A stretch of 58,540 nt of DNA, the filler included, from Sphacelaria rigidula (taxonomy: Eukaryota): NCBI GenBank assembly GCA_964200075.2. It is 9 parts of 9 records of this genome, joined end to end, with 100 filler letters (N's around TTAATTAATTAA, not from the genome) between each part and the next. Parts side by side here need not be neighbours in the genome. Positions count along the whole stretch, not along the records: positions 19,549 to 25,964 come from CAXNAA020020202.1; 8 more parts are not named here. One strand, written 5' to 3'. This document shows positions 3,104 to 49,522 of the stretch, piece by piece. The notes below the pieces were generated by a model, which made no database searches, was not told where the DNA came from, and was given only the letters and a program-made list of their open reading frames with translations. Position 1 is the stretch's first letter, and every line of letters begins with the position of its first letter. The position numbers and the translations under genes are program-made.

Positions 3104-3186
3104 AGGGGGGTGGGGTGGGGGTGAGGGGCGTACTCATGTGTTGCTTGCTTTAGTCGCTCGACCGTTGACCACGCATCTCTTTAGAG
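3104..3186 (-). mobile_element. Short 5'-truncated LINE 3'-end copy inserted antisense in the LINE
   Basis: Reverse complement reads GATGCGTGGTCAACGG...GCAAGCAACACATGAGTACGCCCC plus C tract; ACGCAGC is duplicated on both sides; removing it restores NRNAAGADK. Confidence 0.8.
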
Positions 3187-5305: not shown

Positions 5306-6416
5306 CACCGGCAATATATCGAAAAATTCCAATATGATCGACTAATATAGATTGGAAACATCTTGTATTGTCCAGGGTGTGATATTTTTACAAGGAGTTG
5401 CACAAGTTAGTGAAGAAGCTGAAAACAGTATAAATAACAGCAGCTAGGAAAATGCGTGGATCCTCGAAAACGATCAGTAATACAGCATTGAGAGCAGAGT
5501 TGGGATTGTACCCACTTGAAAGAAATAGAGACACGAGGAAGTTTGAATGGCAACACAGCATAAGGAGCATGCAAAGAAAGAGATTGCCGACCATAGTTGA
5601 TAGGGCCGTTTGCAAGAAAGTGACGAAATGGCTGGCTGGAATAAGGTGGGATAGCATAGTCGAAAAAGTATGGAAGGACACAGGAGGAAATAAAGACGGG
5701 ATAATGTCACTACGTGAGTGCGAGCGGTACGAGATATAAATAAGGGAGAAACAAGCGCTGACTCGGAAACTAGACCAGGAAGAGCTACTGAAGATATACG
5801 GGGGGGTTGAGGTAGATAACAGGGATCAATACATATCTGCATGATCCAATGGACTCCGCCTAAAATTTGCAACTGCGATTTCGATTGGAGGGCCGGGACC
5901 TGCCGGAGAGAAGGAGGAGATATATCAGTAGTCGAGTGGACGAGTAATTGGATGCACAGCAACTGCCCCTGCGGCAATGCAATAGAGAGTAGAACTCATA
6001 GAATGGGGAAATATGAACTACACAAGACGGAACGAGTCGTATTGGAGGGGGAATTGAGGGAAGTAAACGAAGGTGGGGTAATATCGTTCGGTACAATGGA
6101 CAGTAGTGGGAAAACGACGGCTATACCAGGAGACAGATGGTGGCCAGAGACGGCAAAATAAGAAGGGGATACGGTATGTGAAAAAAAATTGTGTAAGGAA
6201 TAGAAGAAACGTCATGAGCGCACGAATGATGGAGGTGTCTCCATTAGGAATAGGTATGGTGCTCAGTCTCGAAAGGGATGCGTGGTAAATGATCGAATCA
6301 CCAAAGGCAAATGAGTACCCCCCCTCCCCCTCCCCTTCCCCATTTCGAGCTCCATGTAAGAGAGTGACTCGCTTCGGACCCGAATAGGAATACGAGGGAC
6401 AGGCGGGGGTAACAGT

Positions 6417-6516
6417 NNNNNNNNNNNNNNNNNNNNNNNNNNNNNNNNNNNNNNNNNNNNTTAATTAATTAANNNNNNNNNNNNNNNNNNNNNNNNNNNN
6501 NNNNNNNNNNNNNNNN
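6417..6516. other. Artificial contig linker (N44-TTAATTAATTAA-N44); also at 12933, 19449, 25965, 32481, 38996, 45511, 52026
   Basis: Identical 100-nt spacer carrying stops in all six frames, separating contigs of 6416/6415 bp. Confidence 0.99.
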
Positions 6517-6596
6517 GTGCTCCGTCCCGGCTTTGTAGGGACGCGAGGTCAATGGTCTTACGACTAAGGCATGCATGATCATGAGTACCCCCCCCG
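6517..6596 (+). mobile_element. Retroposon 3'-end fragment (family II) with C tract
   Basis: GTGCTCCGTCCCGGCTTT...GGTCAATGGTC...ATGAGTACCCCCCCC, matching ~39994-40070. Confidence 0.7.
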
Positions 6597-12830: not shown

Positions 12831-13402
12831 GGCGTCAGTTCGGATACCCGAATTTCCCCAAAATTGTTTTTGGGCAATGGCCTAGATAAGATATACCTCC
12901 TCGTTTTTTGCCTAAGAAAAATACGAAAAATGNNNNNNNNNNNNNNNNNNNNNNNNNNNNNNNNNNNNNNNNNNNNTTAATTAATTAANNNNNNNNNNNN
13001 NNNNNNNNNNNNNNNNNNNNNNNNNNNNNNNNACTGGCCCGAATGGTTTTGAAAAACGTCGATCCTGAGGTATTTTAAACTACGGCGCGGTCCTCTAAGC
13101 ACGCGGTCCTCTCACGCATTACAGTCCGCCTAGCTGTAAACACATAATCGTAAAGAGGCGAGAAAATGAGCCTTCAGGAAGCGTCCAGGACAGCGATCAC
13201 GTACGGTTCAAACCGAAAGTGTCCACCTCTTCCGTTCTCGGCTCAACGTCATCAAGCTGTGCGGTTTGCAGGGTATCCAAGAAGCACAGACACCTGGCTG
13301 CGTCTGCGAACCAGCGATACTTCCTATAAATGTGTGCTGTTCATCATGCATGCGTCGCATGTTTCCCTATTACTTGCGTTCCGAACTTTGATCTCGCCGC
13401 AG

Positions 13403-19050: not shown

Positions 19051-19379
19051 GATAAACCGTATCTAGATATACAAGGGTCAAGAGCTTTTGATGGCGTGCA
19101 TGGGTGAGGACGACGAGGAGTGGATTCTAAACTACTGGAGGTCATCACGTTTTCGTACACAAATACATGTGCTGACTGGTGGGCGTGTCAACCAAAGATA
19201 GTACTACATGTACACAAACATATATATATATGGAGTAGACAGCGATGCACTTGCACCGATCGGGCAGCTCTAGCATCTAAATGAAGCATGGTAGCAAGGA
19301 TACGATCCTTGTCTTTTGGAACCTTGTGAAGTATTGTCCATACCCTCCACCGTCATGTAATACCCCACCCCCCTTTGCC

Positions 19380-19448
19380 TGCTCCGTCTCGAAAGGGATG
19401 CGTGGTCAATGGTCAAATGACTAAGGCAAGCAACAAATGAGTACGCCC
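19380..19448 (+). mobile_element. LINE 3'-end fragment
   Basis: GAAAGGGATGCGTGGTCAATGGTCAAATGACTAAGGCAAGCAACAAATGAGTACGCCC; the contig ends in the C tract. Confidence 0.8.
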
Positions 19449-21148
19449 NNNNNNNNNNNNNNNNNNNNNNNNNNNNNNNNNNNNNNNNNNNNTTAATTAA
19501 TTAANNNNNNNNNNNNNNNNNNNNNNNNNNNNNNNNNNNNNNNNNNNNCTTTACAACACCTTATCATTATCTTGGAGTAAAAACTCTGCAGCCCTGCACA
19601 ATCTGGCCTAGGCTACACAGCGAGGGTCATCATCTACAGGATGCCCTTGTCCCCTGGTCATCATTCAGGATCCACTATATACTCAATCGTGACGGCGTGA
19701 TTTCGCCACACCCCCTACTTCGCCAGGTACAAGTCGGGGTGCAAAGAGGCTCCCACCCCAGAGTGTTTCTCGGGCATCGACCAACACGCCGGAACATCTG
19801 CCACGCTGATTCTGAGCGTCAGGGGAATAGTGCCCCAGGACAAGTGGACCAATCGCCTCACGAAGTGAGTACATGGCTCGCCTATAGTGGCACTATGAGA
19901 GTGGACGTGTATATTTTGAGATGGTGTATGTCTTTGCTTGCGTCCTTCCTCACTCCGGTCCCCGAGAAACGAGAATGAGATTTTTGTTGAGGACGAACCT
20001 GGGAAACAAAACGTTTTCGAAATAAAAGTATATCTGCACTCTCCGGCGGGAATGTGTGGCGTCGCTCACGCCACGAACGAGGATCACCCGGAGTGAGTAA
20101 GGTCCTGTGTTTTTCAGGAGAATCTGAAAAATAAACACTTTTCATGGCGTTGGGCACTAAACCAGTACATGCACTGCCAGTGCATATGTACTACCGGTGC
20201 ATATGCACTGGTAGACAGCCTCGCCAGTACACCAGTACATACACATCTACGTAGATTCCTCAATACGCCTGAAGAATCAGCGGAAACCCATCCATTCAGG
20301 CCGCCTCAAAGGAGACACAGCACACCGCACACCCCACACGAACTCCTACGTATTGTTGTAGCATGCTATGCTGGTTCGTGTTCCCTTTGTTTTTTGTTTT
20401 TTTTCTTGGCTTCTTGGTTTAATTTCAGGGCTGCCGTGTCGTTGCACCCTTTGTTTTTCTGCGAGAGGTTGTCCAGTCCAGTGAACAAGAGTGCCACTCA
20501 CCACCTTGTACTCTTGTGCCTTGTGCTTTCAACTGCTGGTTTTCAGGGCTTTCTACTCAGTCTTGCATTTTTTCAAAACTCCCCAACGTAGGGGATGTGC
20601 TGGAACATACAGTTTCGCGCCCTTTCATATGCACAGAAAACGCCTCCCACGATCCTGGAGATCCTGGAGTTTGTGGGTGTTGCAAAATCTGAAATTTGTG
20701 CCACATTCCCTCATCTAGAAAAGTAGAAAACCAATAAATTTGGGCATTGTCCTCGAAATTTCTATCGTTTTCCCAGCGATAGTGCCTCTGTCACATGGGG
20801 CCAAAATCACTCATTTTTTTTATCGACTAGTGAAGCTAAATCGCGTGAAAAAGCGCCTCCAGCGGGGCCCCCTCACCAGCCGGAGAGTGTAGGTCTCTTC
20901 ATGTTCCGATTTGTTTCCGATGCTTGTGGACGTTACCAAGGGCGATCCGCAACAATAAACCCCGCCTCAATATTTGAAACCGCGTGCTCAGGCGGGTGCA
21001 TTGTTTTCCGAATGTGTTCGTAGCCGTTGTTCAACCGTGGCGGTTGCTGATGGCTGCCACTCCGTCGCGGTACGCTACGTGAATATATCCGATTGACATG
21101 TAGTTGATGGCGCGTGTGCTATACTGCTGTCTGCCGCCCGGGCCCCAG

Positions 21149-24100
21149 GGAGATTAGCAAGCTCGCTTTCGAGTCATACAGCAGCTGCGAAACGGGGGTC
21201 CAGCCGCATTTCAAAGAACTGAAGGAGAAAGTAGACGCGCTCGTGCAAAAAATAGCTTGGGGCGACAACGCAGTTTCGAGCGACAAGAAGAAGGAGATAG
21301 ACGAGCTGGGGGGTACGATTAAAGCGGTCGCTGCCCGCAAGCCTAGGCATCGTGTCAGAAAGGTAACATACGCATTTATCTCCTTCGATGCGAACTGCGC
21401 ATGCATATGCGTGTACCACAGTTTAAATCAGGCACCACGGTCTGCCGCGTGTGGCGAGGAACGGTCCGCCGCCCCCGCTTTCACGTGTTGTTCCCTCTCC
21501 AATCCATCATCATCCCCCCCTGTCCCGACGACTGGACAACATGCCCATACAGGTGCTGCAGAAGGACCCCAAACTGCGCGCGTACCTGACCACGTCGAAT
21601 GAAAAATACCAGGACGTCATAAACAGAGTCAACCTAGTCCACACTCACAATGCCATGCAAGCCGATGATGATGGTAGTATCGACGAGTCGGACACTGGGA
21701 GTGGCAGTGAAGACGATGGCGAAGACAACCCCGGCAGCGGCGGGGGCGGGGGCGAGGGTGAGGGCGGGCAGGGCAACGGGAACGAGAAGGACGACAAAGG
21801 CGATGTCGACAAAGAAAACGGGAACAACGAACCACAAGACAACGACGACGACGACGACGACGACGCATACGCCGGCGGTTTCTTCGGGGGATACACCGGT
21901 GGTATCTTGGACAACCTGCCCGACAACCCCGATGACGACAGCAGCGGGGGCAAGGGGAAGGGGGAGGGAGAAACCGAGAAGGGGAAGAAGGTGGAGGTCA
22001 ATAAGGAAAATAAAAAGCAAAAGGGGAAAAAGAAGAAGTATCCCAGTGTCCTACAGCACAAGCCCTCCTCCTCCAACCGCCAAGCGACGGGTATGCAGTT
22101 GTGCAGGTGATTGCATGCCGTTCTGTGGTCGCGTGTTGCTCCGTTTGGAACTGGTCGTGCGCGGTTTCGGGTGTGCTTCGTGGAACTGTGGGGCACTCTT
22201 GGTCTATCCCGCTATCTATGGAGGGAGATATTGGAACATGTGATATGTTTCGTCTATATTAATTTACAATATACAGCGTGTGGCCGTGTGCATACAACAG
22301 ACAAATGGAGATGACGCGTATCCGCATCGACTGTACCGTCTTCGTGTCCATGGGCAATTCAAAATATTTGAGCAATGAAGTGATCCGCCATGCTATCGCT
22401 CCTTTGGCCTGTGTATACGCATGTGTTGATGCTATATTGTTGTCCTATCGCGGCAGGAGCGAGAATGCCGTGGTGTACGGCGTACGCCCCCTTGACTCTA
22501 CCACCACGTCTTCGCAGCGGGAAAGCTTGAGCGTCGCCGACCCGCCAATGCTTATCGTCGTCTCCGTCGGCGCCGAACCTCGGCTCCTCAAGAACAAGGA
22601 GTCAGTGAACGCCCACCTGACGTCGGTCATGCGTGAGACCCACAGCCTGCTCCATCCTAAAGGCACTATGGTCTTCTTCGTGCCAAAACCCTGGCCCCTG
22701 CATATGCACCGCCCGCAAGGTGCGTGCAAACACGGCTCGTAGTCAGGCCGAAACACGTTTTTCTGCCGATGGCGAACCTCAGTACAGTGTCTCCGGCAGT
22801 ATTGTTGTGGCCTTTTCTTACCCGCTCCGTTTCTTATGTTTGTTGCAGCGCTCCAACTAGACATCCGCCCGCGCGTCAACTTCTTTGTTGTTTTGATCAT
22901 AATGTAGCGGCTGTTGCATCGATACACGTGGGGTTAGTGCTGGAGGATGAGGTGCTTGTTGTGATCTACGAGACGAGGGGAGGGGGGGGGGAAGGGGCGG
23001 ACTGCTGCAGGTAAGGAACACTATCTCCAACCTGCGGCAGACGCGATCTTAATTGCACACAATGGTGGGCCTGGGTACACGGGCAACAAGCGAGTGACGC
23101 CTTCAGACAAGTTCGACCTCAGCGGCGACCCTTTCCCCTCGCCACTGGCCGTGATGGACGACGTCGAGTATTCTGGCGCAGCGATGGATATCCCTAAAAG
23201 GACTCTCGAATTCCTTGTTAACAGGTGCGTTCGTAGCATTCCCGAACTTACAACAGCAAGCGGAGTGACTGTTGGTGACAGAACAGCTGCAAAAGCCGTT
23301 GGTGGTGAAGGGCTACGGCGTAGTGTTTAGCACGATTCTCCTGTAGTTTTTGTCGTCGTCGGGTTTTAATCTCTACCCGCTTGATTTACGTCTTTTTCAA
23401 CTGGTGCCGTTGTTAGAGCCCTTGCCTGAGACTGATCGCTAGTATTACTGTAGCTGCAGAGGGGGGTATGCAGCGCTACAAACTGTGGAGCACGACTACT
23501 GCTGGAGGAGAGGTATGTGGAGGTTATCTAATCTTTGTCGTTTTCTTTATCTGTATATTAATGTGTACTACTATTCCCAGGGGATGTAATTTCCTCTGAT
23601 CGAGGGTATGTGAAATAGGGTGCACGTGTTGATTAACGATACATTATCACACGAATATTTCTACAGGTACACAAACCCGGGTGACACGGTGCTCAGCTTG
23701 AGTGCCGAAAAAACTGCGTCGTCGAGGTGGCGCTCGAACGTGGAAGGAGAGTATAGGTGTGCGTGGCAAGCCCAGAGGCGACGGGTGTTGTGGAGGAGCG
23801 GCTCAACAACTACTTCCGCCAAGCCTACAACGCGGTGTTGTGGTGCGCGTCAGCCCCCCTTTATTTCGTCGTCTGTTGCTTTTGGTTGTGCTGTATGAAC
23901 ATCGATTGCCCTCTCTCTTGGCGCTTCTACTTGTCGTCCTGTGCTGTTTTTTGTTTTGTGACGTACAGAAGGTCCCGCTTGTTGTTATCTCTAACGCAGA
24001 TACTTCCCCTGTCTCACAAGTCTGTGCCGCTATGTTTGCACGAGCCCTTAACCGTGTCAGACGCGGGCTTTCAAAAAAAAAAGAAGCCCCCCCCCTGAAC

Positions 24101-25672
24101 AAAAATAGGCTCCGCGGAGGGAAGGAAGGCTTTGAAAAGACGCAAAAAATCGCTTCAAAACAAAAGGTCTGTCTTGGCTCAACGAAACAGAAATGACTAT
24201 TGTTGCTGAGGCCTACGGAGCGAAGGCCTAAGTTATTCAGAGTTTTTCGAAATTATGGCAGACGTTTTTCTTTTTGATCTGAAAAAAAATAATGCAAAGC
24301 ATCCGAAACGCACCCCAGAGTGTGGTTGGCCGCATAAGCGGGTGTGCGTTCTAGACACGTCGTGTTTGTTTTGTCGAATCAAAAACAAGAGCACCTGCCA
24401 AATAAGTTGAGGACACTCGGAAAAAAAACATGCTCGTTGTGCTGTCCTACCATAACCCGCATTCCCAGTGTTTCTGCCGTGCTCAGACGTCACTGTCTCT
24501 AGTCAAGCAGGTGGTCGTACGTCCGGGCCACCTACCTATAGGTATCGAGGCCCTCGAAGTCCCGGGGCGCGTGCACCATACTTACAACCTATTCACAGAC
24601 CCTACCCGCGACCATGCGCTCGATGACGCTGCCGCAACTCTGAAGGTTGCGACTGATTTGTGCACGGACTTCGGATACACTGTGAAGGTGAATGAAGCCC
24701 ACGTGAAGTTCCCGGCATGTTTGTTTTCCATCTGTTGTTTCGTTCATCAATATGGCTTTTCGAGAGCTTCAGTAGCCCATGCAAGCCCTTGCTGATAGAT
24801 AGAGGTAGCAAGTGCGCAAGTAATGGGTTTGAAACGTACCTATATGCACCATAGTTCTGCTATGAGCAGTTTTGTCGCTGGGTGGTGCCATCTTCACCTT
24901 CGTTAACCAGCTGGATATCACTGCCCTCCTCACCGCGTGATACAGTAATATGGGAACTCCACTGACCCTTGTGTCGCCCCTCGCCACCACTCCCATTGCC
25001 ATGCGCAGCCGAACATCACAAACAAACAAACCCTGTTCCCACAAGAAGGCCGTAGCTACGCCGTCAATGAATGCGACATCCCAGCGTGGAGTACATACGA
25101 AGTGCACCGCTCTCGACGGAAAGCATTCGCTTCCCTCGATGCCGATGGTCGGAATGACATGTACATCCGTATGCTCCACAAGGCGAACAACGAGCAGCTC
25201 CAAAAGATGCTGTCGGAGACAGAAGTGCGTGGCCCACGCGATGAACTGTACTTGCGCGTGGACGACACGTGCCCTCTGTTCAACGTCCTTTGGAACGACG
25301 AGCGCCAGGCGAACATAGAAATGCAGTCTGCAGTACTGCCGGCCGGCCCCCGTGCAGAGCTATTGCGCCCGTTCGCCAAGGAGAACACCGGCGCGGGATT
25401 CACCGCTACTGCTACAGCCAGGAGTTTCAGAAAACGTGCGGCGGGCGAACGAGAAACGACGTCGTTCTACGTGTTCCCGGGTGCGATGGTCGTCCGGGGT
25501 CCTCAGTACCAAGATTATGACTCGTCGGAGTCCGATGCCTGACCCGCTCGGAGTAAGCGCAAGAAATCCGCCGACAAGGCCGCCGCCCCCCGCAAAACGC
25601 GCCGTCCCAGGCAAACGCGAGGCAACGGCAACAGTGGCGAGAACAGCGCCCCATCCGAATGGGGGAGCGACG

Positions 25673-25713
<41 letters not shown>

Positions 25714-25812
25714 AACATATCAGAAGGAGATAACAAAGAAGGCCATGAGAAGGAAGAGAACGAAGAGGAAGAGGAGGAAGACGACCGGGCAGACAAGGGC
25801 GCCTCAAGCTGA
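21149..25812 (+). pseudogene. Multi-exon gene with a beta-class N6/N4 DNA methyltransferase-like core, acidic low-complexity arms and several frameshifts and stops; 5' end not found
   Basis: Phase-compatible GT-AG exons 21149-21362, 21553-22106, 22301-22719, 22908-23224, 23667-23834, 24511-24687, ~24946-25812. Motifs in order: VADPPM, VMRETHSLLHPKGTMVFF, GLVLEDEVLV, DAILIA, PKRTLEFLVNR|YTNPGDTVL, VALERGRRV, VVEERL. Confidence 0.7.
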
Positions 25813-25828
25813 TACAGTGATTTGTAGT

Positions 25829-25945
25829 TGGGGAGGGAGGGAGGGAGGGAGGGAGGGAGGGAGGGAGGGAGGGAGGGAGGGAGGGGGGGGGTATTTATCT
25901 GTTGCTTGCCTTAGTCGTTTCACCATTGACCACGCATCCCGTTCT
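25829..25945 (-). mobile_element. LINE 3'-end fragment with (CCCT)n tail
   Basis: Reverse complement GGGATGCGTGGTCAATGGTGAAACGACTAAGGCAAGCAACAGATAAATACCCCCCC(TCCC)n. Confidence 0.8.
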
Positions 25946-26064
25946 GGACCGAGCTGGGGGCGGGNNNNNNNNNNNNNNNNNNNNNNNNNNNNNNNNNNNN
26001 NNNNNNNNTTAATTAATTAANNNNNNNNNNNNNNNNNNNNNNNNNNNNNNNNNNNNNNNNNNNN

Positions 26065-27605
26065 TCGATCATCCGGTGCTGAAGATTTGGAAGCAAGTCA
26101 GGGTCGACGAAGTGGTTGCTGGCGCCGGTGTCGACAGTCATGGTGAAGCGCGAAGGAGCAGCGGCGGTGTTCAGGCTGCTGGTGGCGACGAAGGAGTAGC
26201 CCATTCCGGTAGGAGGTGAAGGGCCTGAAGGCGATGTATCTGAAGCCTGTTGGGTGGTGGCAGTCGCGGAAGTTGGAGTAGATGATCCGGTTGTGTTGTA
26301 ATGTCCCACCACAGTAGTAGACCCTGGTGTCGCTGTTGCTGTGTGTGCTGCCGCGTTGGTGTTGTCGTTATTACCACCTTGTCCACTGTTGTTGTTGAAG
26401 CGGCCTTGTCCGCTGTTGCTGAAGTGTCCTTGTCCGTTGTCGTTGAAGCGGGATTGTCCTTGCTGCCGTGGTCCGCTGTTGTGACGTGGTCCTCGGCCGC
26501 GCTGCTCTTGCTGCCGCTGATCGTCAGGATCGTTGCCCCGGTGTTGTTGCGCCTTGCAGGTCGAATTGTCGTGAAGACTGGTTTTGTGCAAGGAGCACCA
26601 CCGATTACTTCTTCCCCCTCCGTTGTTTCTTGTGCTCTTCTTGTTGTTTCGCTTAAAGCAGTTATTGATGTCATGACCAGTTTTTTTGCAGTAGTTGCAG
26701 TATTTTGCCGTTGTGGCGGTCATCGCCGAGGTACGACCCTTCGCTGCACGCGAAAGCCCGTTTTCTGCGACACGGTTTGCAAACATGTTCCTCATGGTGA
26801 ACATGGCGTCTTCAAGATTGAAAGTGGCTTGCGATTCCGCAAGCAATTGAATCTGGGTGTACTCGTCCGTCAGCCCATCCAGGATGCTGTCAAGTATCTC
26901 GTCGTCTGTAATCACTCGACCCATCTCCGCCAGTTCATCTCGCAACGAAAATAGCTCGTTGCAGAAGACGTCCGGGTCTTGACCTTGCTGCATTCTCATG
27001 TTAGACAGACTTTTTGCCATAATTCGACGCCGCTGGTGTGAAGGGTTCTTGTATTTTCCCACCAGACCATTCCAAGCGGCGATGCCGTTTGGCAAAATGC
27101 CTGGTCTAGGCTTGTACTTTAGGAGAAAGCTTGCTGCCGGTCCTACCGTACCCAAGATTAGGAAGTGGAACAGGATCTTGTTGGCCATGTGCCACTCCCG
27201 GATGTCCTCGACGATCTGGACGTTGTCATCCATCTCCCAGATCACAGAAGTAGGAGTCTCGCCGCTTGTTGAAGTCGGCTCATCTGGTGCAAGCTGCTGC
27301 TGTTGCTCGGGATGCAGTGCTGGGTCTTCTGCTGCATCCTTGTCTTCATCCTCTTCTTCATCTTCGATGCTTGAGGTTGCTTGTTTCTTGCGCTTGCCAG
27401 CTTTGCCATTGGTCTTCTTGTAAATGGTCGGCGGACATGGTCTGCCGTTCAGGATGTCTGTAATGCCCGAATGTCGCATGCTGATCACAGACTGTGCTGT
27501 GCGGGACCAGATATCGAAGTCCGTCCCGTTGAACTTTCCGCCAACAGCCTTGACGAGCTTGTCCACTGCGTCCGCCGCAGCAGCATTTGTCAATGGCTCC
27601 CCCAT
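26065..27605 (-). CDS. gag: Copia Gag running into the protease
   Basis: Capsid-like region (GQDPDVF...ILDGLTDEY), zinc knuckle CNYCKKTGHDINNC, protease VDTGASNHF. Confidence 0.92.
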
Positions 27606-27618
27606 GCTGCGGTGATCC

Positions 27619-27649
<31 letters not shown>

Positions 27650-27662
27650 GCTGTTGCTGTTG
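27619..27662. repeat. (TTG)n microsatellite just upstream of the gag ATG
   Basis: Direct reading; reads as poly-Q in the gag frame. Confidence 0.9.
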
Positions 27663-28304
27663 CCGTCCGTGTAGATGACGTATACTCGTACAACAGTCGT
27701 ACGATGACGTTGAAATTTTCCAAGAGAAACTGACAGTCCCTCAACAGAAGATGATGATGCACCCATGTGTGAGTTACCTACAGGTGTTGGCTGCGAATGC
27801 CAGTTGATAGGCTTGATGGATCCGAAGTCCTTGCCTCTTGGCTATCTATAATGTTGCTAGAAGGACCTCCCGAACTGATGATGTCGTAGCTGAAGACGAC
27901 GTAGCTGAGTGTCATTGCTGATGACGACGTATCTCTCTTTTCTTGAAAAAACTCTCACGCAACAAAAATGCGGAGGAATAGCTCAGAACTTGCCGATGCG
28001 ATACGGTCGATTGTCGATCTTGTTGATGACCGAAGATGCTCCCTAGCGAGATGAGCGTGGAGAGGTAGTCTTGAGCTAACTCCGTTGAACTGCTGTAGTG
28101 ATGTCTTGGCGACGTGGATGATGCCGACGCGCCTGGTCTTGATGGACCTCCACGGAGCTTGAATTTGATTGAGGGGGAAGGACTTGAAGTTCCCGTTGGT
28201 GCGATGTCCGTCTTCTGCTTGGAAGAGCGGTGCCGATCCTCTTGAGAACGTGTTGATCGCTGACGACGCTGTGACTCCTTGCTGTGCTTATTGATGAAGC
28301 TCGA

Positions 28305-28315
28305 GGCTCATAGCC
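28305..28315 (-). promoter_or_regulatory. Primer-binding site, half-tRNA-iMet type
   Basis: GGCTATGAGCC directly after the LTR terminal CA on the minus strand; resembles the GGTTATGGGCCC site of Drosophila copia. Confidence 0.75.
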
Positions 28316-28765
28316 TGTAGGAATATGGCTTCACTCTTGATGGTGTACCGATGTGGCAACTGTCTTCTGCAGTTTATGCAGAGGTGCAGAGAGTGGCGGT
28401 AAAGTCACTTGACTTGAGAGTGGAGATGTTGAACTTGGTGCTCATGTGGCCGAAGACTCTAACTCATGGAAGAGAAGAGTATGAGAAGAGAAGTAGTAGG
28501 GGAGTGATCAGGTGGGCGAGCACCAAGTGTGCGAGCCTACCGATCAGCTAATGAACTTCCAGAACTTCCACACGTCTGGAACACTCGTGGGATATTACAA
28601 CCGATAACTCCCGATTACTCCCCCGACAACTTGTTCTGGAAACACGATGTGCCGCAGAATATACCGCAGACTATTTCTGGAACACACAAATGATTTCTTA
28701 CTTGTTTACGATAACCTACGATAGATAGTAGTCGTTACCAATGACTGACATTGAATATTTCAACA
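28316..28765 (-). repeat. LTR, 450 bp
   Basis: TGTTGAAATAT...ATATTCCTACA imperfect inverted termini, bounded by the PPT and PBS. Confidence 0.85.
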
Positions 28766-28774
28766 CTCTCCCTC
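28766..28774 (-). promoter_or_regulatory. Polypurine tract
   Basis: GAGGGAGAG immediately before the LTR TG on the minus strand. Confidence 0.8.
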
Positions 28775-29125
28775 AATGGAAAGTCATCTCAAAGGAAAGT
28801 AATCCAAAGGAGGAATATCTTGATGCAAAAACACTTGCGCAAAAGATAACATTCTGCACTCCCACTCGCGACTAACAGAGATCGAACAAAGATCTCTCAC
28901 GCTTCCTTCTGCAGCATGTACGGTAGATGCAGCAAATGAAAAGAACGCAAGAATGCTGTCTACAAGAAGTCAACATTTTTAGCCTAGATATTCAAGCTAC
29001 TCAGGAAATGCAGAAAGTATGCACAAATCTTCTGAGGTTGCTACTCCGAACGAGACGTACAGAAGATTCCGCCTGGACTATTCCTTGGCGATGATGAGGA
29101 GCCCGATCCTTGAGTTTTGGCGTCG

Positions 29126-32100
29126 TCACTTGAACTGGAGGATTTGCCGCATGAGGCTGTCTTGTACCTCGCGGACGCAGTACTTGGCGCAAAAGTCGAC
29201 CAACATGTGGCGGCCTGGAATGAAGTTTAGCTTGATGATGCCTTGACGGATCCATTCGCGGAGTGCGGCGAAGCGGACGGCGATGTGCCGCGACCTCTGG
29301 CTGAAGTTCGCCTCCGAAGCTAGGGTCATGGAGCTCCGGTTTTCCGCATACACAGGGTGAAGATGCGTTGCCGTGACCATCCTAGCTCCCCCAGCATAGA
29401 AGAGAAGTAGAGCCCGTGCTTGGCGGTGCTCTTCATTGCGATGAGCTCCGCCTCCGATGTCAAGTGTGCGGTTATGCGCTGAACTTGACTGTCGAAGTGA
29501 ATGAGCCCTCAACTCAGAAAAACCATTGATCTGGTGATGGATTTGCTTGATGGTCCAGATGCGTAGGAGGTGTCGCTGTGGCAGGTATGCTGAAGTCGCT
29601 GGCGCGCCTGTAGGTAATGAGGAGACCTGGGTTGCGCTTGAGGCACCGAATAATCCTTTTGGCGCTAGCTGCGCTCGCAGTGGTCGGACTTGACATGTGC
29701 CGTGCTACCTGCATGACGGCATGCGCGATGTCGAATCTTGTGCAATCCACCAGGAAGATGAGGCTCCCACCAACTCTGGTAGTCCTTTTCCTCGTTTGCG
29801 AAAAGAAGTGCAGATTCACCAGTTGCGTTGTTGAGCTCGGCTCCTGTCCCTGGAGTGTGCGAGGGATTGCACGTATCCATGCCATAACGCTTGAGCACAG
29901 ACACGGTGTAATTCTCCTGGCTGAGGCTTATTGTGCCGTTCTCCAGGTCTTGATGAATGTCGATGCCGAGAATCTGAGTCGCATGACCAAGATCAGTCAT
30001 CTTGAATGATTGCTGATCCTAATGCACTTGGTGCAGCTCGTCGGTAGAAGGGCTCGTGAGAAGAATGTCGTCGACGAAGAGTGTCAGCATGCAGTAGGTG
30101 CCTCCGCTGCCCTTGGTGCAGACACAGGGGTCAGATGCTGTAGGTATGAACCCTTTCGTGCGCAGATCCTTGTCGATTGTTGAGTTCCAAACGCTCGGAG
30201 ATTGACGCAGCCCGTAAAAGCTCTCGCGCAGACGCCAAACCAGCTGCTTGCCAGTGGTGCTGTCGAACTTTTCGAATCCTGGCTCCTGAAAAGTGTACAC
30301 CACTTCGGAGAGGGTACCGTTTAGGAACGCTCTTTGCATGTCCATGGCGATGACCGGCCAGGTCTGGGTAGCCGCTATCGCCAATAGAAGTCTTTGGCTT
30401 TCAATCCTGCACACCAGTACAAATGTGGTGAAACAGTCTATGCCGTGCTGTTGCGCCCAGCCCTGAACGACGACTCTTGCCTTGAATCGCCCATCCGTTT
30501 TGATCCGATAAACCCAGCGCGTGCCGATGATGGAGCAACCGGCGGGTACGGAATCGAACGGGACGAGATCCGCCACCTCGTGGTCGGCCAGGCTGTTCAT
30601 TTCTTTGTCCATGACCTTTTCCCATTCCGCTGCGTGGGGTGAGTCCATCGCCTGCTTGTAGGTGTTGGGCACTTGGATTGCTGCAGGAGGAAGAACTTGA
30701 TCGATGCCCACTGTTCCGATGTACAAGGTCACTGAGTCCAGCATCGCTTGAGATGAATCCTCCTGCGCGAAGTTGAGCTGTCGTAGCGCCCGAGCCTGTG
30801 ATGAAATATCCATATCTGATTGGAAAGGATCAACGGATCCGAATGAACGCAGTCGTCGTGTAGATCCCTGTGGTTCCTTGAAGCGCTGTTCCTGTCGGTT
30901 GTTGATATCGTGACCGTCGCCGTTGTCCTTGTTGGAATCCAGGAATGTAATTCCGTCGTGGAATTGCTCCAGATCCGCCGTGTGGACCGATGATTCTTCT
31001 TCTTCACTATCCGGAAGATTGGTACAGCTCAGGGGTTCCGGAACCGGCTCGATGAAGGTGACATTCCGGGAGGTTGTAATGCATCCCGTAGCCCGATCGT
31101 AGATACAAAAGGTTGGGCTGTCGTCGTTGTAGCCAACCAAAACACCTTCCCACGCTTCTGGCTGCAGCTTGGTGGTATGACCTTCGACGTGGACGAAGGC
31201 CCTGGAGCCGATGATCCGAAGAAAGGAAAGGTTTGCCTGCTTGCCGAACATGCGATGGTAGGGCGTGTCCCCTTGTAGAGCCTTGTGCGGTAGGCGGTTT
31301 ATTAGGAATACCGCAGTTGCCGCAATCTCCCCTCATAGGTGCTTAGACAGACCTGCTTTGTTCAGGAGGCAGCGGGTCATGTCCATGATGGTTCGCCCGT
31401 CGCGCTCCGATATGCCGTTTTGTTGCAGCGTGTGCGGGCAGCTGAATTGCTGTATGATCCCCGTAGTTTTGCAGGATTCGCGGAACGCAGTGCTGACATA
31501 TTCCCCGCCGTTGTCCGAATGTAGACGTTGTACCCGTAGACCGAGTGGAATGGCGAGGTCTTGAACGAACCGTACCAGAGAAGAAAGGGCGTCACTTTTC
31601 CTTTCGAGGAAGTAGACGGCCTTGAGCCTGGAGTAATGATCGGTAAACTTGGTCATGTACTGGTAGCCACCGATCGCAGTTGGAGTGACGGGCCCTAGAA
31701 GGTCCGTGCCGACGAGTTGAAATCGTTGCGTGGCGCCTGTGCTCCTGGTCTTGGGATGATTCCGTCGTGTGCTTTTGTTTATCTTGCACGTCCCGCACGC
31801 TGAAAAGGAATCGGAAAACCCGACCCCGCTCTCTTTTATCCGCCCGACTTGTAGTAGCACTTGGGCATTGGGATGTCCCAGTCGCTGATGCCCCGTGTTA
31901 GCCATCGATGTAGCCATTGAGGTGGCACATGCTGTTTCCTTTTCCGTGTCCTGGATCAAAGAGGCACTGGATGCTATATTCGCTCTTTCAGGCGGCAGAT
32001 TGGCGCCGGAGACGGTTTTAAAACCGTGTTGAGTACAGATGCTGTCTGGTGCAATAGCCAGATCCAAGTAGTACATGGTGGTGCAGGAGCTGTCCTGTCG

Positions 32101-32480
32101 AAGAGGCAGCTTGAAGTTTCCCATTCTAATGAAAGAGAAATCATCAAATACCAACGGCATCCCTCTTTGCACTGCTGTTCCTCCCGTGAACAGGTGACGA
32201 CCCAGCCCTGGCGCGATGGTGAAGGGCAGCAGGACCTTGTGCTCGGCCCCGGTTTGGTCCCGTGTGAAGACCTTCATTTTTCCTCTGCCGGTGCCGTGGA
32301 GTTTTCCCTTGCCGGCGACGTTGATGACAATCAGCTGATCGTACTTTATATACTCGATCATCCGGTGCTGAAGATTTGGAAGCAAGTCAGGGTCGACGAA
32401 GTGGTTGCTGGCGCCGGTGTCGACAGTCATGGTGAAGCGCGAAGGAGCAGCGGCGGTGTTCAGGCTGCTGGTGGCGACGA
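29126..32480 (-). pseudogene. pol: Copia pol (protease, integrase, RT, RNase H), disrupted
   Basis: DTGAS, HQRLGH, DLLGP, HSDNGGEY, QNGISER, FKARVVVQG, YGLRQSP, LFVDDIL, RSRHIAVRF; stops at 31333-31335 and 30019-30021 and frameshifts in the RNase H region. Confidence 0.93.
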
Positions 32481-33553
32481 NNNNNNNNNNNNNNNNNNNN
32501 NNNNNNNNNNNNNNNNNNNNNNNNTTAATTAATTAANNNNNNNNNNNNNNNNNNNNNNNNNNNNNNNNNNNNNNNNNNNNTGTCTGGGAGAAACAAGACG
32601 AGCGAGGGGATCGACAGTAATTGCAGGGGGGTCTACACGACTGCTGTACGTGGGGGTAATGTGAGTGGCAGCAAGGCTGACCAAACGGCGGCTACGTACG
32701 GTATCGCCAGGCGGGGTGAACAGAGGGAAAAGAAAAACCAGGAGATATGAACGCCGAACGAAAGACCTGGGGGACTACAGAATGTAGGGACAGATCTACA
32801 GTACGAGGGCTAGGTGTACGCAAAAGAGCGCACAGTACAGTCAAAGGGGAAGATAACGTACGCTGCGAGAGGTGAGCGAACACGGTACAAGTGCACAAAA
32901 AGGAAAAGACCAAGGACAGGTGCTAAGAAGGGTTGCCACGGGGGAAGGCAAAAGGCTGTACGGGGAACGTGCACAAAAGGTAGACTGTGAAAACAAGACG
33001 CTGCCGGAAAAGCAAAACTGCACGAGAGTAAATGAAACACAATCTGACAGTAGTCCGACGGAGGGGATACCACAAACGCAAAGAAAACACAAGAAAACAA
33101 GAAAGCAAGGGTACTAGGAAGGTGAAAGGTATCAAAGCTAACGAAGTAGAAACTCCAAGTCAACGTCAAGTGTCACGATGTTGTAAGGCTTTATCACAGA
33201 AACCCTCGCTGTAGTGCAGAAACACACTAAGCACAACAGTGCAATCACTTGTCTGGGATACAACTCGTGACGGGTTCACGCACAATAGGTTGATAACTAC
33301 TTGACTCAAGGCTCTTGTTTAAGATATGCTCTTTTTCTTGCTCACTTTCTTCTTGCTCAATGCTTTTCCACGCTTGTGTCTCACCAATCAGGCAACAGTC
33401 GGATGCTTTTTCCTGGGAAGCTTAGCAGTGGCTTCCATGTGCTGTCTCAAGCTCTAATGATACCCTTTTATAGGTGTACACACTATATCTGACCCTCCGT
33501 TCAGACCCGTTATCCAAAAATCCAAACATCGAAAGATCGATGCTGCTTGTCTT

Positions 33554-38900: not shown

Positions 38901-39095
38901 ATGACCTGAATATGTGCCTCCCATCAACGGGCCTTACAGACTGGAATACGTTATTCACCGCCCCAAATTCCCGAAAACCTCATTCTGGGCGACGGNNNNN
39001 NNNNNNNNNNNNNNNNNNNNNNNNNNNNNNNNNNNNNNNTTAATTAATTAANNNNNNNNNNNNNNNNNNNNNNNNNNNNNNNNNNNNNNNNNNNN

Positions 39096-39450
39096 GCAAT
39101 GGTCAAACGACCAAGGCAAGCAACAGATGAGTACGCCCCCCCCCCCTCCTCCCTCCCTCCTCCCTCCCTCCTCCCTCCCTACTAGACAGTAGCGAGAAAA
39201 TAATGGCTATGCTAGGAGATAGATGGTGGCCACAGACTGCGAAACGAGACGGGGATAAGATACGTAAAAGTTTTTTTGTAGTGTATGGAAGAAACGTAAT
39301 GAGCACCGAAATGTCGGAGGTGTCTCTACTAGGAGTAGGAACGGTGCTCCGTCTCGGAAGGGATACGTTGTCAACGGTCAAACGACTAAGGCAAGGACCA
39401 AATGCGTACACTCTTCCCCCCCCCCCCCCCCAACCGTACGCCCCCCCCTG
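39096..39450 (+). mobile_element. Two tandem LINE 3'-end fragments, each ending in a C tract
   Basis: GAGTACG plus C/CCCT run to 39180, then GACAGTAGCGAGAAAA..GGAGATAGATGGTGGCC (as at 6100-6300) and a second C run. Confidence 0.85.
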
Positions 39451-45448: not shown

Positions 45449-46593
45449 TAGCTATAGTAAGACGGTAACGACCGCCAGATTGTCGCATTCGCCTCTAGTA
45501 AAAGTACGAANNNNNNNNNNNNNNNNNNNNNNNNNNNNNNNNNNNNNNNNNNNNTTAATTAATTAANNNNNNNNNNNNNNNNNNNNNNNNNNNNNNNNNN
45601 NNNNNNNNNNTCGTTCTCGTTAGTTCGTAGTCGGCCTTCGGTGTGGGGGGCGTGAGGGGGGGGGGGGGCGGGGGGGGCGGGGGGGGGTAGCATCGAAGGT
45701 TATAACTCACGGGCACCATCGGCTCGACTTAAGGTAGTCTGCGTCATGCAGGGGAAGCAGAGGGCGCACGCTGCCATACGAAGATAGGCAAGACGGAAGT
45801 ACATCGCATATGGCACCAGCTGGTGCAGTTTCGTGTGTTTTCAAGCTTTGAGTTCGATAAAGTTGAAACTTCTCCCCCGAGGGGGTAGAGGGGGTGGGAC
45901 GGGTTGGAGGGGGGAGGGGGGTTCCTGGGCATCCAAAAGTCCATTGCTCGGGTACCTATGCCTTGACTACAAATTCTGGGTACTTTATTGCACCTAAAAA
46001 GTATTTCACCTGAACATATCACTACGTAACCACCCAGTTATTGTCTAGAGAGTCAGTAGGTCGTGTTGTGGTGAAACTCACCGATGTTCCTCGCTACCCC
46101 TTGGAATTGCTACGAACCCTCATCCAGTGTCACCAGCGCGGCGGTTGCACGATGAATCGACAGCGGTTACCATAGACGGTACAGTTGTAGGAGGTGCGCT
46201 TTGGTGTAACGGTATAAGATATCGAGGGGTCGGCATGAAAGTTTTCATATTCGACATTCCAGGACGGGGGGCACACTGTCCCACCAAATTGTGATTTGAA
46301 TATCTAGTGTGTTCGACTTCTCTTGAGCCCTATCCCGTAAGGGGGCGTCACGATACCGTGCGGTCATTGCATTGACAATGGTCGTAGTTTTATCTCAACC
46401 AAGCATGGTCGCAGCGGTCGTCTACGCAATCGCAAGGATAGATAATGGCCTTTGTGTGCATTTTACTGAACCACTACAGAGTACAATATACTACTGGAGC
46501 TCTGCGTGACAGACCAACTCGGACTACCGCGTCCAGTATTCAGAACGCGTGCATTGGTACAACATAGTATCATGGTAAATACGTCCAGCTCAC

Positions 46594-49060: not shown

Positions 49061-49522
49061 TTATTACTACTATTATTACTACTACTACTATTACTATTAC
49101 TATTACTATTACTATTACTATTACTATTACTATTACTATTACTATTACTATTACCATTACTATTACCATTACTATTACTATTACCATTACTATTACTACT
49201 AGTATTATTACTATTATTACTACTAGTATTGCTATTATTACTATTATTATTACTACTATTACTATGACTATCACTATTACTATTACTATTACTATTATTA
49301 CCATTATTACTATTACTATTACTATTACTATTACTATTACTATCACTATTACTATCACTATTACTATTATCATTATCATTATCATCATCATCATCATCAT
49401 TATCATTATCACCATCACCATCATCATCATCATTATCATCATCATTACTCGTATTATCATCATTATCATTATTATCATTATCATTATCATTGTTATTATT
49501 ATTATCATCATTGTCATTACTA
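49061..49522. repeat. Compound (TAT/TAC/CAT)n microsatellite
   Basis: Direct reading. Confidence 0.97.

What the first reader, a model, noticed from the sequence alone, without database searches (positions are those of the whole stretch)
21149..24687. Intron-containing gene encoding a bacterial-type beta-class N6/N4 DNA methyltransferase fold
This is invisible in single ORFs. Splicing phase-matched GT-AG exons gives the permuted beta-class motif order. SLSVADPPM (DPPM at 22539-22550) compares with LIVTDPPY. About 36 aa later, VMRETHSLLHPKGTMVFF compares with ECYRVLKPGGSIYI. GLVLEDEVLV compares with GFxLxNEIIW and DAILIA with EYILVF. PKRTLEFLVNR|YTNPGDTVL, joined across the 23225-23666 intron, compares with PxxLxERLIxxxTNPGDxVLDPF. 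VALERGRRV...VVEERL compares with AAxxLGRxFIG...IAxERL. The catalytic aromatic is Met and the SAM-binding FxGxG reads SLSAEK, so it may have been an inactive, DNA-binding derivative. There are frameshifts in a G run (~22977-22991) and an A6 run (23708-23713) and a TAG at 23754. Eukaryotic capture of beta-class amino-MTases is known but rare (bdelloid N4CMT). An intronised family in this lineage would point to an uncharacterised 4mC/6mA writer or reader, possibly carried by a transposon.
Basis: partly seen in the sequence, partly recalled or inferred. Interest (0 to 1): 0.8.

Follow-up and report, generated by a model that had tools for sequence, protein, structure and literature searches.

The report
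Decayed transposon-type methyltransferase-like gene, brown-alga family
The stretch is a broken copy of a real, intron-containing algal gene whose protein carries a bacterial-type DNA methyltransferase fold that has lost its catalytic residues; proteins of this kind were recently described as passengers of giant transposons in brown algae.

Summary
All the quoted peptides are at the stated places. The intron 23225-23666 is bridged by RNA-like contigs. Both proposed frameshift sites are places where other genomic copies differ by 10 nt and 1 nt, which restores the frame.

The gene is longer than reported, at least 19713-25812. The copy in the window is a pseudogene, one of several diverged copies. 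The "window" is a chain of unrelated 6.4-kb contigs, so only 19549-25964 is context.

The spliced product aligns end to end with Ectocarpus "expressed unknown protein" CBJ26632 (E 2.9e-36). The full-length form of that protein has 1116 aa.

Pfam finds nothing. A profile-profile comparison with beta-class amino-methyltransferases gives 95% probability over 185 collinear columns, and the controls are negative. The best fold matches of the confident part of a model are CcrM and M1.HpyAVI.

None of 32 family members has a canonical (D/N/S)PP(Y/F/W) tetrapeptide, and the SAM loop is degenerate, so the domain is probably inactive.

A 2025 Ectocarpus transposon paper describes a 1104-aa ParB-like plus N4C/N6A methyltransferase accessory protein of a giant Sola-1 element. 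This family has that length, and one weak lead points to a ParB-like front.

The parts
19549..19712 (.). Start of the contig that holds the finding. It is an extremely high-copy repeat, not part of the coding sequence.
   Evidence: The linker N44-TTAATTAATTAA-N44 ends at 19548. The depth bin 19549-19762 reaches 2.6e5 to 3.3e5 in the DNA-like runs, against hundreds elsewhere (table 2).
19713..19864 (+). Its donor is AA|GTGAGT at 19864|19865.
   Evidence: An X6 contig joins about 19842(+21 nt) to 21149 (tables 5 and 5c). The frame is open and in phase with 21149. There is a weak collinear match to P0043 residues 348-378, E 0.025.
21149..21362 (+). Exon (EISKLAFESY...RHRVRK).
   Evidence: It is an open frame with acceptor cag|G. 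It is covered by an X6 contig (table 8). That contig runs on unspliced through 21363-21552.
21553..22106 (+). Exon encoding the acidic and lysine-rich low-complexity linker.
   Evidence: It is an open frame, 21427-22110, in phase with the next exon to give ...LCR|SEN. The Ectocarpus protein has an acidic linker at the same place.
22457..22719 (+). Exon C. It encodes the relic of motif IV (DPPM, 22539-22550), a helix, LHPKGT and the strand VFFVPKPW.
   Evidence: 31 related genomic ORF fragments at 26-78% identity all end at the same donor place. This part reaches pLDDT above 90 in both models.
22908..23224 (+). Exon D (GLVLEDEVLVVIYE ... DAILIAHNG ... NKRV ... IPKRTLEFLVN). It has 10 extra nt in the G run at 22977-22991, which shift the frame.
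   Evidence: The frames are seen. Other copies lack 10 nt at 22977 (table 4). The same stretch is contiguous in P0026 and P0044.
23225..23666 (+). GT-AG intron.
   Evidence: 2 X6 contigs skip 442 nt (GT..AG, cut +4). 0 contigs of X1, X2 or X4 do so (table 5).
23667..23842 (+). Exon E. It encodes YTNPGDTVL, a degenerate SAM-loop region (SLSAE..), GRRV and VVEERL. One base is missing in the A run at 23708-23713 and there is a TAG at 23754-56. The 3' end is diverged, so the donor is uncertain (23834 or 23842).
   Evidence: Other copies carry +G behind 23711 (table 4). YTN(P/A)GDTVL and GRRV are shared with Ectocarpus P0044. The X6 joint 23829(+15 nt) to 24485 is.
24487..24687 (+). Exon F (TSLSLVKQVVVRPGHLPIG...GYTVK).
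   Evidence: 2 X6 contigs enter at 24485. Read in frame, the junction gives ...QAYTDGKFK|TSLSLVKQ in the expressed copy (table 5c; sequence). It aligns with P0044.
25009..25812 (+). Last exon. It encodes the conserved C-terminal domain (..NEQLQKML..LYLRVDDTCP..), then an in-frame TGA at 25540-42, then a basic and acidic tail open to 25812.
   Evidence: The X6 joint 24681(+4 nt) to 25007 is. tblastn of P0043 residues 873-1105 against contig positions 5443-6108 gives E 1e-15.
25830..25964 (.). (GGGA)n followed by a dispersed repeat at the end of the contig.
   Evidence: Copies at 74-90% identity lie near the ends of four other places in the window (sequences).

Best explanation
Window 19549-25964 is one small unplaced contig. 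It holds a decayed copy of a multi-exon gene that exists in several diverged copies in this genome, probably that of a brown alga.

Intact relatives, such as the 1116-aa Ectocarpus protein CAM9205284, have this order of parts:
- an N-terminal region with ParB-like features;
- an acidic linker;
- a circularly permuted, beta-class (N6_N4_Mtase-like) Rossmann methyltransferase domain;
- a conserved C-terminal domain with an acidic tail.

The window holds everything from the middle region onward.

The methyltransferase-like domain descends from a bacterial or phage beta-class amino-methyltransferase. It has lost the catalytic (D/N/S)PP(Y/F/W) tetrapeptide, whose family consensus is now xPPK. It has also lost the FxGxG SAM loop. 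It therefore most likely no longer transfers methyl groups and serves as a DNA- or base-binding module.

By architecture and length the family fits the ParB-like plus DNA methyltransferase accessory protein reported for the giant Sola1-1 transposon of Ectocarpus. Such a protein is proposed to bind its own element.

**Shown here:** the gene structure, the pseudogene state, the homology to the Ectocarpus proteins, the beta-class homology, and the motif loss.

**Inferred:** inactivity, DNA binding, and residence in a transposon.
For: **Gene and junctions**
- the X6 joints, and the indels of other copies at both frameshift places.
- exon C has 31 relatives, all ending at one donor place.
- the upstream exon is in phase.

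**Homology to named brown-algal proteins**
- P0026 is from Pylaiella littoralis.
- an Ectocarpus cluster of 11 includes CBJ26632 "expressed unknown protein" and the 1116-aa P0043.
- 142 of 506 aligned positions are identical.
- blastp E 2.9e-36 over 434 aa.

**Beta-class homology**
- my own HMM of 44 YhdJ-like enzymes scores the 256-aa spliced core at 12.9 bits, E 3.7e-6 for one sequence. 0 of 3000 shuffles reach that; their maximum is 3.7 bits.
- hhalign gives 95.1%, P 3e-8, 185 columns for the family; 93.5% for the window alone; and 65%, P 6e-5 without the window rows.
- the reversed, column-shuffled and PrmA controls are all negative.

**Fold**
- P0043 residues about 580-650 reach pLDDT 89-95, with the order strand-helix-strand-helix-strand-strand.
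- the top Foldseek matches are CcrM (E 8.2e-4), M1.HpyAVI (9.3e-4), TTHA0409 and a type III Mod subunit (1.7e-3), then METTL3-METTL14.
- VIA gives CcrM Z 6.4 (128 aligned), M.MboIIA Z 6.3 and M.RsrI Z 6.1.

**Motif loss**
- 0 of 32 members are canonical. The fourth place is K in 22, M in 8, Q in 1 and V in 1.
- the SAM-loop region reads SLSAE.. in the window and GIGVETTT in Ectocarpus.

**Literature**
- PMC12477816, passages read.
Against: - Pfam and NCBIfam find no family in any exon, in the 32 family members, or in P0037, P0026 and P0043, even at E up to 10.
- P0044 alone reaches only 15.7% in hhalign.
- Other family members score lower than the window copy against my HMM, from -3.2 to 8.4 bits.
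- The exon C family profile alone aligns only the LkpgG-like 30 columns (23.7%).
- Both structure models are poor outside exon C (mean pLDDT 65.9 and 41.9). The fold scores are modest (Z at most 7.0, E about 1e-3), and many unrelated small alpha/beta folds score alike.
- The ParB-like reading of the N-terminus rests on one language-model look-up, with no Pfam support.
- Nothing in this 6.4-kb contig shows a transposase or element termini.
- I could not compare with the published Sola1-1 protein, because its FASTA supplement is not readable here.
- Inactivity is inferred from motifs recalled from the literature, not assayed.
Confidence: 0.7

Rival explanations
1. Intact members of the family are active N6-adenine or N4-cytosine DNA methyltransferases (writers). 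Only the window copy looks dead, because it is a pseudogene.
For: - The window copy keeps D-P-P and is the member most like the enzymes.
- PMC12477816 words the Ectocarpus domain as predicted to produce 4mC or 6mA.
- An RNA-like run carries spliced copies.
Against: - 0 of 32 exon C sequences have an aromatic residue at the fourth place or a canonical tetrapeptide. D occurs once, in the window alone.
- The annotated Ectocarpus and Pylaiella proteins read YSPK and KPPK there.
- The SAM-loop region lacks FxGxG in both lineages for which it is known.
- The family does not match the motif I region of PrmA (P 0.065), whereas true beta-class enzymes do (92.7%).
Confidence: 0.12
2. The resemblance to methyltransferases is chance or a generic Rossmann-like arrangement. 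The family is a lineage-specific protein of another origin.
For: - There is no Pfam, NCBIfam or PDB sequence hit.
- The fold scores lie in the range where common arrangements appear.
Against: - The hhalign match covers 185 collinear columns in the permuted order. Without the window rows it persists more weakly (65%, P 6e-5, 159 columns). It fails with reversed, shuffled and unpermuted templates.
- The exons were fixed independently, by RNA-like junctions and by other groups' gene models.
- The top Foldseek rows are beta-class DNA methyltransferases and MT-A70 enzymes.
- YTN(P/A)GDTVL and GRRV are conserved between lineages that share only 28% identity.
Confidence: 0.08
3. The family is an ordinary multi-copy host gene family of brown algae, not cargo of a transposon.
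For: - The Ectocarpus members are annotated as genes ("expressed unknown protein").
- The window contig shows no transposase and no terminal repeats of an element.
- The exon-intron structure is conserved across deep divergence.
Against: - Several diverged copies, some with disabling indels, lie in one genome: 1-11 contigs per listed site and run.
- The gene is flanked and interrupted by high-copy repeats (table 2).
- Almost no annotated proteome carries it: 1 named protein among the 31 exon C hits (4 of them looked up by source: 3 unnamed, 1 named), as expected if it is repeat-masked.
- The published Sola1-1 accessory protein has the same length class and domain pair.
Confidence: 0.25

Closest known systems
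ParB-like plus DNA methyltransferase accessory protein of the giant Sola1-1_Ec32 transposon of Ectocarpus (PMC12477816, 2025; passages read)
   Same: - It is from a brown alga and is an intron-containing, transcribed gene.
- It has about 1100 aa (1104 against 1116 for P0043).
- It has a prokaryote-type N4C/N6A (beta-class) methyltransferase domain behind a ParB-like front.
- It is a repeated element with few intact copies.
   Different: - Identity with that protein could not be checked, because its FASTA supplement is unreadable here.
- The paper speaks of a predicted writer. Here the catalytic and SAM motifs are degenerate in all 32 members seen.
- The window copy is from another, unnamed species at 28% identity, and it is a pseudogene.
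Bacterial and phage beta-class amino-methyltransferases (Pfam N6_N4_Mtase: YhdJ, CcrM, M.MboIIA, M.RsrI, M1.HpyAVI)
   Same: - The motif order is permuted, IV to VIII, then X, then I, over 185 aligned columns.
- The stretch PxxLxxLIxxxTNPGDxVL and the GR+hh strand behind it are shared.
- These enzymes are the best fold matches.
   Different: - The family falls below every Pfam threshold.
- It has no DPPY-type tetrapeptide and no FxGxG.
- It has introns.
- It carries large eukaryotic extensions: an acidic linker and a C-terminal domain.
Inactive methyltransferase-like domains: METTL14, and the methyltransferase domain of DIRS1 retrotransposons (PMC4738411; passages read)
   Same: These too are amino-methyltransferase folds kept after loss of the catalytic residues. 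In DIRS1 the domain sits inside a mobile element, and a binding role is proposed.
   Different: They belong to other clades (MT-A70, and PCIF1-like group 2). DIRS1 is a retroelement polyprotein, not a separate spliced gene.
Accessory genes PAG2 and PAG3 of red-algal Plavaka transposons (bioRxiv 10.1101/2025.02.11.637652; one passage read), and bdelloid N4CMT (recalled, not read)
   Same: Prokaryote-type DNA-modifying or ParB-like domains were captured by eukaryotes, in the algal cases as cargo of giant DNA transposons.
   Different: The domain combinations differ: an N6A methylase with SET, and ParB with a 2OG oxygenase. N4CMT is an active single-copy host enzyme with a chromodomain.

Membership tests
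Pfam N6_N4_Mtase (PF01555), beta-class amino-methyltransferases | Score above the curated Pfam cut-off | tested here: not met
   No PF01555 hit, even at E up to 10, on the 8 exon pieces, 10 ORFs, the 32 family members, P0037 and P0026, or P0043.
Pfam N6_N4_Mtase (PF01555), beta-class amino-methyltransferases | Circularly permuted motif order: IV to VIII, then X, then I to III | tested here: met
   hhalign of the family against 44 YhdJ-like enzymes gives 95.1%, P 3e-8, for columns 57-257 against 59-259 of 294. The window alone gives 93.5% for 24-221 against 35-240. The reversed, shuffled and PrmA controls are negative.
Pfam N6_N4_Mtase (PF01555), beta-class amino-methyltransferases | Catalytic tetrapeptide (D/N/S)PP(Y/F/W). 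The motif definition is recalled. | tested here: not met
   0 of 32 members are canonical. The window has DPPM. The fourth place is K in 22, M in 8, Q in 1 and V in 1.
Pfam N6_N4_Mtase (PF01555), beta-class amino-methyltransferases | Glycine-rich SAM loop FxGxG behind TNPGDxVLDP. The motif definition is recalled. | tested here: not met
   The columns aligned to DPFxGSxTT read SL-SAE.. in the window and GIGVETTT in Ectocarpus. The family fails to match the motif I region of PrmA, which true beta-class enzymes match.
Pfam N6_N4_Mtase (PF01555), beta-class amino-methyltransferases | Class I methyltransferase fold like the solved beta-class enzymes | tested here: inconclusive
   Only residues about 570-700 of P0043 are modelled with any confidence. 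Foldseek gives CcrM E 8.2e-4 and M1.HpyAVI E 9.3e-4. VIA gives Z 6.0-6.4 over 119-128 residues for the five beta-class enzymes CcrM, M.MboIIA, M.RsrI, TTHA0409 and M1.HpyAVI; the list's top score, Z 7.0, is a tRNA m1A58 methyltransferase. The C-terminal half of the domain did not fold.
MT-A70 (METTL3/METTL14-like) permuted methyltransferases | Profile or fold match better than to N6_N4_Mtase | tested here: inconclusive
   No MT-A70 profile was available to me. METTL3-METTL14 chains follow the beta-class DNA enzymes in Foldseek (E 2.0e-3 and weaker), and MTA1 has Z 6.5. The TNPGDxVL..GR+hh stretch matches the N6_N4 alignment.
ParB-like plus methyltransferase accessory proteins of algal giant transposons (Sola1-1_Ec32 type) | N-terminal ParB-like domain | tested here: inconclusive
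   That part is not on the window contig. For P0043 residues 60-330 the ESM Atlas gives DUF3723 clusters at 0.95 and ParB_N-bearing clusters at 0.93 (11 hits). Pfam finds none. The model there has pLDDT under 50.
ParB-like plus methyltransferase accessory proteins of algal giant transposons (Sola1-1_Ec32 type) | Lies inside a Sola-1 element, opposite the transposase | not testable with these tools
   The contig has only 6416 nt and is filled by the gene. The Ectocarpus DNA and the transposon library FASTA could not be read.
ParB-like plus methyltransferase accessory proteins of algal giant transposons (Sola1-1_Ec32 type) | Repeated in the genome, with mostly defective copies | tested here: met
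   1230-1480 contigs per DNA-like run lie on the 6.4 kb at 90-99% identity, with 1-11 contigs per listed site, including indel variants. The window copy has two frameshifts and in-frame stops.

The most novel reading that the evidence does not exclude
Brown algae harbour an old, widely diversified family of pseudo-methyltransferases with a conserved xPPK...LHPxGT..VPxPW core. In this family a captured beta-class DNA amino-methyltransferase has been turned into a non-catalytic DNA-binding or modified-base-binding module, coupled to a ParB-like front. The protein would act as a transposon-encoded marker or reader of its own element rather than as the 4mC/6mA writer assumed so far. A bolder alternative is that the lysine in place of the aromatic residue marks a changed chemistry.
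Probability: 0.2. Interest if true: 0.65.

Novelty: new member of a known kind. Interest (0 to 1): 0.45.

Why it matters
Brown algae such as Ectocarpus are reported to lack, or nearly lack, cytosine methylation. I saw this only in paper listings and recall it, and did not test it. A transposon-borne prokaryotic DNA methyltransferase module is therefore one of the few candidates there for a DNA-level mark or for its reader.

The work here makes two additions. First, the family is far more diverse and widespread than its one published mention suggests: 31 exon C relatives down to 26% identity. Second, all members seen lack the catalytic tetrapeptide. That changes the expected experiment from "look for 6mA/4mC" to "look for binding".

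It also shows that unplaced, repeat-flanked contigs of draft algal assemblies hold recognisable copies of such cargo genes, which annotation pipelines skip.

Tried and rejected
- **Own genome:** none is held.
- **Earlier notes of this scan:** nothing by place, sequence or words.
- **Sequencing runs:** no RNA holder is listed. X6 is RNA only by guess.
- **Protein searches that found nothing:** exon C with lengths "longer" (22 candidates, none scored); exon D with lengths "near" (95 candidates, none scored).
- **Metagenome scan with a 9-member subset alignment:** 5 loci with 16-23 residue matches, taken as spurious. The full alignment was too variable for the scan.
- **Viral contigs with P0044:** none.
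- **PDB by sequence:** exon C gave one unrelated hit at E 1.2; exon D gave none; the family profile gave two unrelated hits; P0037 gave none.
- **ESM Atlas on the last exon:** best score 0.82, no lead.
- **Rfam on the whole window:** 0 matches.
- **PHROGs:** only E 0.2 to a "methyltransferase" family at P0043 residues 749-784.
- **Pfam on the 32 members:** Eco57I methylase in 2 of 32, best E 0.077.
- **Model of P0026:** Foldseek found no match at E <= 0.001, and VIA gave Z at most 5.6 with generic folds.
- **ParB_N in 5 viral records:** none. The two E. coli matches were not followed up.
- **Self-comparison of the contig and a repeat search:** no second copy of the gene and no terminal inverted repeats.
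- **Alignments A3 and A5:** MAFFT misplaced the short window pieces, so these were not used for folding.
- **Dropped rows:** of the 35 hits, P0002, P0008 and P0023 were read and are bacterial-type tandem-repeat proteins. P0024 (2075 aa, 10 stretches) was dropped unread for the same pattern.
- **Rejected idea:** from the G after each acceptor AG I first thought of a dinoflagellate host. I dropped this when the named relatives turned out to be brown algae.
- **Irrelevant paper:** PMC3627910 (Fanzor), passages read.
- **Supplements of PMC12477816:** 4 held files were searched for methyltransferase, accessory, ParB, unknown function and additional gene, with 0 occurrences. The two FASTA files and the PDF cannot be read here and may hold the deciding sequence.

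Full report
**What the window is.** The 58.5-kb window is not one locus. Every 6516 nt there is a linker, N44-TTAATTAATTAA-N44. The window is therefore a chain of unplaced contigs of about 6416 nt each. The finding lies on the contig 19549-25964, and nothing outside that range is genomic context. The copia-type ORFs at 26013-32532 belong to another contig.

**Checking the observation.** DPPM is at 22539-22550. LHPKGTMVFF is in the same ORF. GLVLEDEVLV and DAILIAHNG lie in two frames on either side of the G run. PKRTLEFLVNR ends at 23224 and YTNPGDTVL starts at 23667. GRRV is followed by TAG at 23754.

I laid Logan contigs of four runs on the contig. Three runs behave as DNA: they cover all 30 bins and show no intron-sized joints at exon borders. 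X6, labelled RNA only by guess, has no depth in 5 of 30 bins, all of them proposed introns or their edges. X6 alone shows these joints:
- about 19842 to 21149;
- 23829 to 24485 (2 contigs);
- 24681 to 25007.

Read in frame, the few extra letters at these joints give in-phase junctions in the expressed copy. For example, ...QAYTDGKFK|TSLSLVKQ.

Ten nt are left out at 22977 in one X2 contig (depth 88 of 219). One more G stands behind 23711 in most of the depth of X1 and X2 (126 of 160 and 115 of 154).

The window copy is thus a real variant and a pseudogene. It has two frameshifts, a TAG, a diverged end of exon E, an in-frame TGA at 25540, and YG where relatives have a conserved HD.

The gene is larger than reported:
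- an upstream exon at 19713-19864 is in phase with 21149;
- two further exons, 24487-24687 and 25009-25539/25812, follow.

The entry into the sixth exon is at about 24487, not at about 24512.

**Relatives.** An exhaustive phmmer search with the exon C ORF found 35 proteins at E <= 0.001. Three that I read are bacterial tandem-repeat proteins. A fourth of the same pattern was dropped unread. The other 31 are short genomic ORF fragments at 26-78% identity. All of them run into an intron at the same place, so the exon and its donor are old and conserved.

One hit, P0026, is an annotated Pylaiella littoralis protein.

Searching with P0026 for longer proteins found an Ectocarpus cluster of 11. It includes CBJ26632, "expressed unknown protein" (531 aa), and a full-length model of 1116 aa (P0043).

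The spliced window model aligns with these from exon C to the acidic tail:
- 142 of 506 aligned positions are identical;
- blastp gives E 2.9e-36 over 434 aa;
- YTN(P/A)GDTVL, GRRV and LYLRVD.TCP are conserved.

The source is therefore probably a brown alga or a close relative. The runs are labelled "algae metagenome" and a coded organism. I did not try to name it.

**Is it a methyltransferase fold?** Pfam, NCBIfam and PDB sequence searches give nothing.

I therefore built a profile of beta-class enzymes from E. coli YhdJ and 43 relatives taken from viral contigs. The results were:
- The spliced 256-aa core scores 12.9 bits, E 3.7e-6 for a single sequence. It does so in two collinear pieces, DPPY to LkpgG and PxxLxxLIxxxTNPGDxVL. 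None of 3000 shuffles exceeds 3.7 bits.
- Profile against profile, the family domain (Ectocarpus, Pylaiella, the window, and the exon C fragments) matches at 95.1% probability, P 3e-8, over 185 columns. The match runs from the helix before LkpgG, through the strands of motifs VI to VIII and motif X, to the GR+hh strand behind motif I.
- The window model alone gives 93.5%. Without any window row the match is 65%, P 6e-5. Ectocarpus alone gives only 15.7%.
- A reversed template gives P 0.21. Twenty column-shuffled templates give P 0.34-0.98.
- An unpermuted class I enzyme, PrmA, gives P 0.065 for the family and 0.72 for the window. The beta-class alignment itself matches PrmA at 92.7% through motif I.

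The likeness is therefore specific to the permuted beta-class layout.

**Structure.** The alignments are shallow outside exon C, so both models are poor overall. The confident segment of P0043, residues about 570-700, has the order strand-helix-strand-helix-strand-strand.

In Foldseek its only two matches at E <= 0.001 are CcrM and M1.HpyAVI. Next come MnmM, TTHA0409, a type III Mod subunit and METTL3-METTL14.

VIA-align gives Z 6.0-6.4 over 119-128 residues for CcrM, M.MboIIA, M.RsrI, TTHA0409 and M1.HpyAVI. All of these align by their N-terminal halves, as the permuted order requires. Small unrelated alpha/beta folds score in the same range. I rate the fold evidence as supportive, not decisive.

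**Active or not.** In the 32 exon C sequences, the tetrapeptide aligned with DPPY is never canonical. The first place is N, T, H, R, S, K and others, and D occurs only in the window. PP is kept in 13 sequences. The fourth place is K in 22, M in 8, Q in 1 and V in 1.

The columns aligned with DPFxGSxTT read SL-SAE in the window and GIGVETTT in Ectocarpus. What is conserved is LHPxGT..VPxPW.

Under the textbook roles of motifs IV and I, which I recall and did not test, the domain should neither hold the target base in the usual way nor bind SAM in the usual way. I therefore read it as a pseudo-enzyme kept for binding. This is an inference.

**What it belongs to.** Passages of PMC12477816 describe giant DNA transposons in Ectocarpus. 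The 21.5-kb Sola1-1_Ec32 carries a transcribed accessory gene, opposite the transposase, for a 1104-aa protein. [quoted passage not shown] The domains were found with InterProScan or HHpred. [quoted passage not shown] Its table lists 1989 copies of the Sola-1 superfamily, 2 of them intact.

P0043 has 1116 aa. Its residues 60-330 lie nearest to DUF3723 clusters and to clusters carrying ParB_N in a language-model look-up. That is a lead only, because Pfam sees nothing there.

The window gene exists in several diverged copies, some with disabling indels, amid high-copy repeats. This fits the published case, but I could not align with the published protein and I see no transposase on the contig. 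I put the transposon-cargo reading at a little over one half.

Related precedents are the inactive methyltransferase domain of DIRS1 elements and ParB-HTH-fused Dam enzymes of chlorophytes (PMC4738411, passages). Another is the Plavaka accessory genes of a red alga (bioRxiv 10.1101/2025.02.11.637652, one passage).

**Verdict.** The interpretation — a beta-class fold, probably inactive, perhaps transposon-borne — is supported.

It is not a new kind of system. It is a new, decayed member of a kind described in 2025. Two additions come from this work: the family is broad and deeply diverged, and it lacks catalytic motifs throughout the sample seen.

Noticed in passing
window 6417-6516, 12933-13032, 19449-19548, 25965-26064, 32481-32580, 38996-39095, 45511-45610, 52026-52125: Linkers of the form N44-TTAATTAATTAA-N44 recur every 6516 or 6515 nt. 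The window is a chain of unplaced contigs sorted by length (6416, then 6415 nt), so neighbouring stretches are not neighbours in the genome.
   Followed up: yes
window 26065-32480, minus strand: Copia-type retroelement ORFs (gag with a zinc knuckle, protease, integrase, reverse transcriptase, RNase H-like). The same 41 residues (VATSSLNTAAAPSRF...LQHRMI) are encoded at both ends of this contig. The contig is therefore circularly permuted or was assembled from tandem copies.
   Followed up: partly
window 19549-19762: The summed contig depth is 2.6e5 to 3.3e5 in the three DNA-like runs, about a thousand times that of the rest of the contig. This is an extremely abundant repeat of unknown kind at the contig start.
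   Followed up: no
window 25842-25957; also 19378-19448, 39097-39180, 39346-39431, 3104-3177, 6261-6334, 6538-6595: A dispersed repeat, (GGGA)n or a G run followed by ..TTGCTTGCCTTAGTCGTTTCACCATTGACC.., lies at or near the ends of several of the chained contigs. It is probably where the assembler broke.
   Followed up: partly
window 20191-21046, inside the first intron: Depth is 400-2500 in the DNA-like runs, several times that of the exons. A weak 34-nt inverted repeat lies at 20017-20050 and 20876-20909. This is probably a nested small repeat element in the intron.
   Followed up: no
P0043 residues about 500-545 (Ectocarpus protein, not in the window): A cysteine-rich stretch, CGVC..CSSC..H..C..C.DC, is spaced like a PHD-type zinc finger. 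The pattern is recalled, and Pfam gives no hit. The window copy has only acidic low-complexity sequence at the corresponding place.
   Followed up: no
window 48913-49700: A long imperfect trinucleotide and hexanucleotide repeat is open in several frames (ITITIT.., NSNSNS..). It is low-complexity sequence, not a gene.
   Followed up: no
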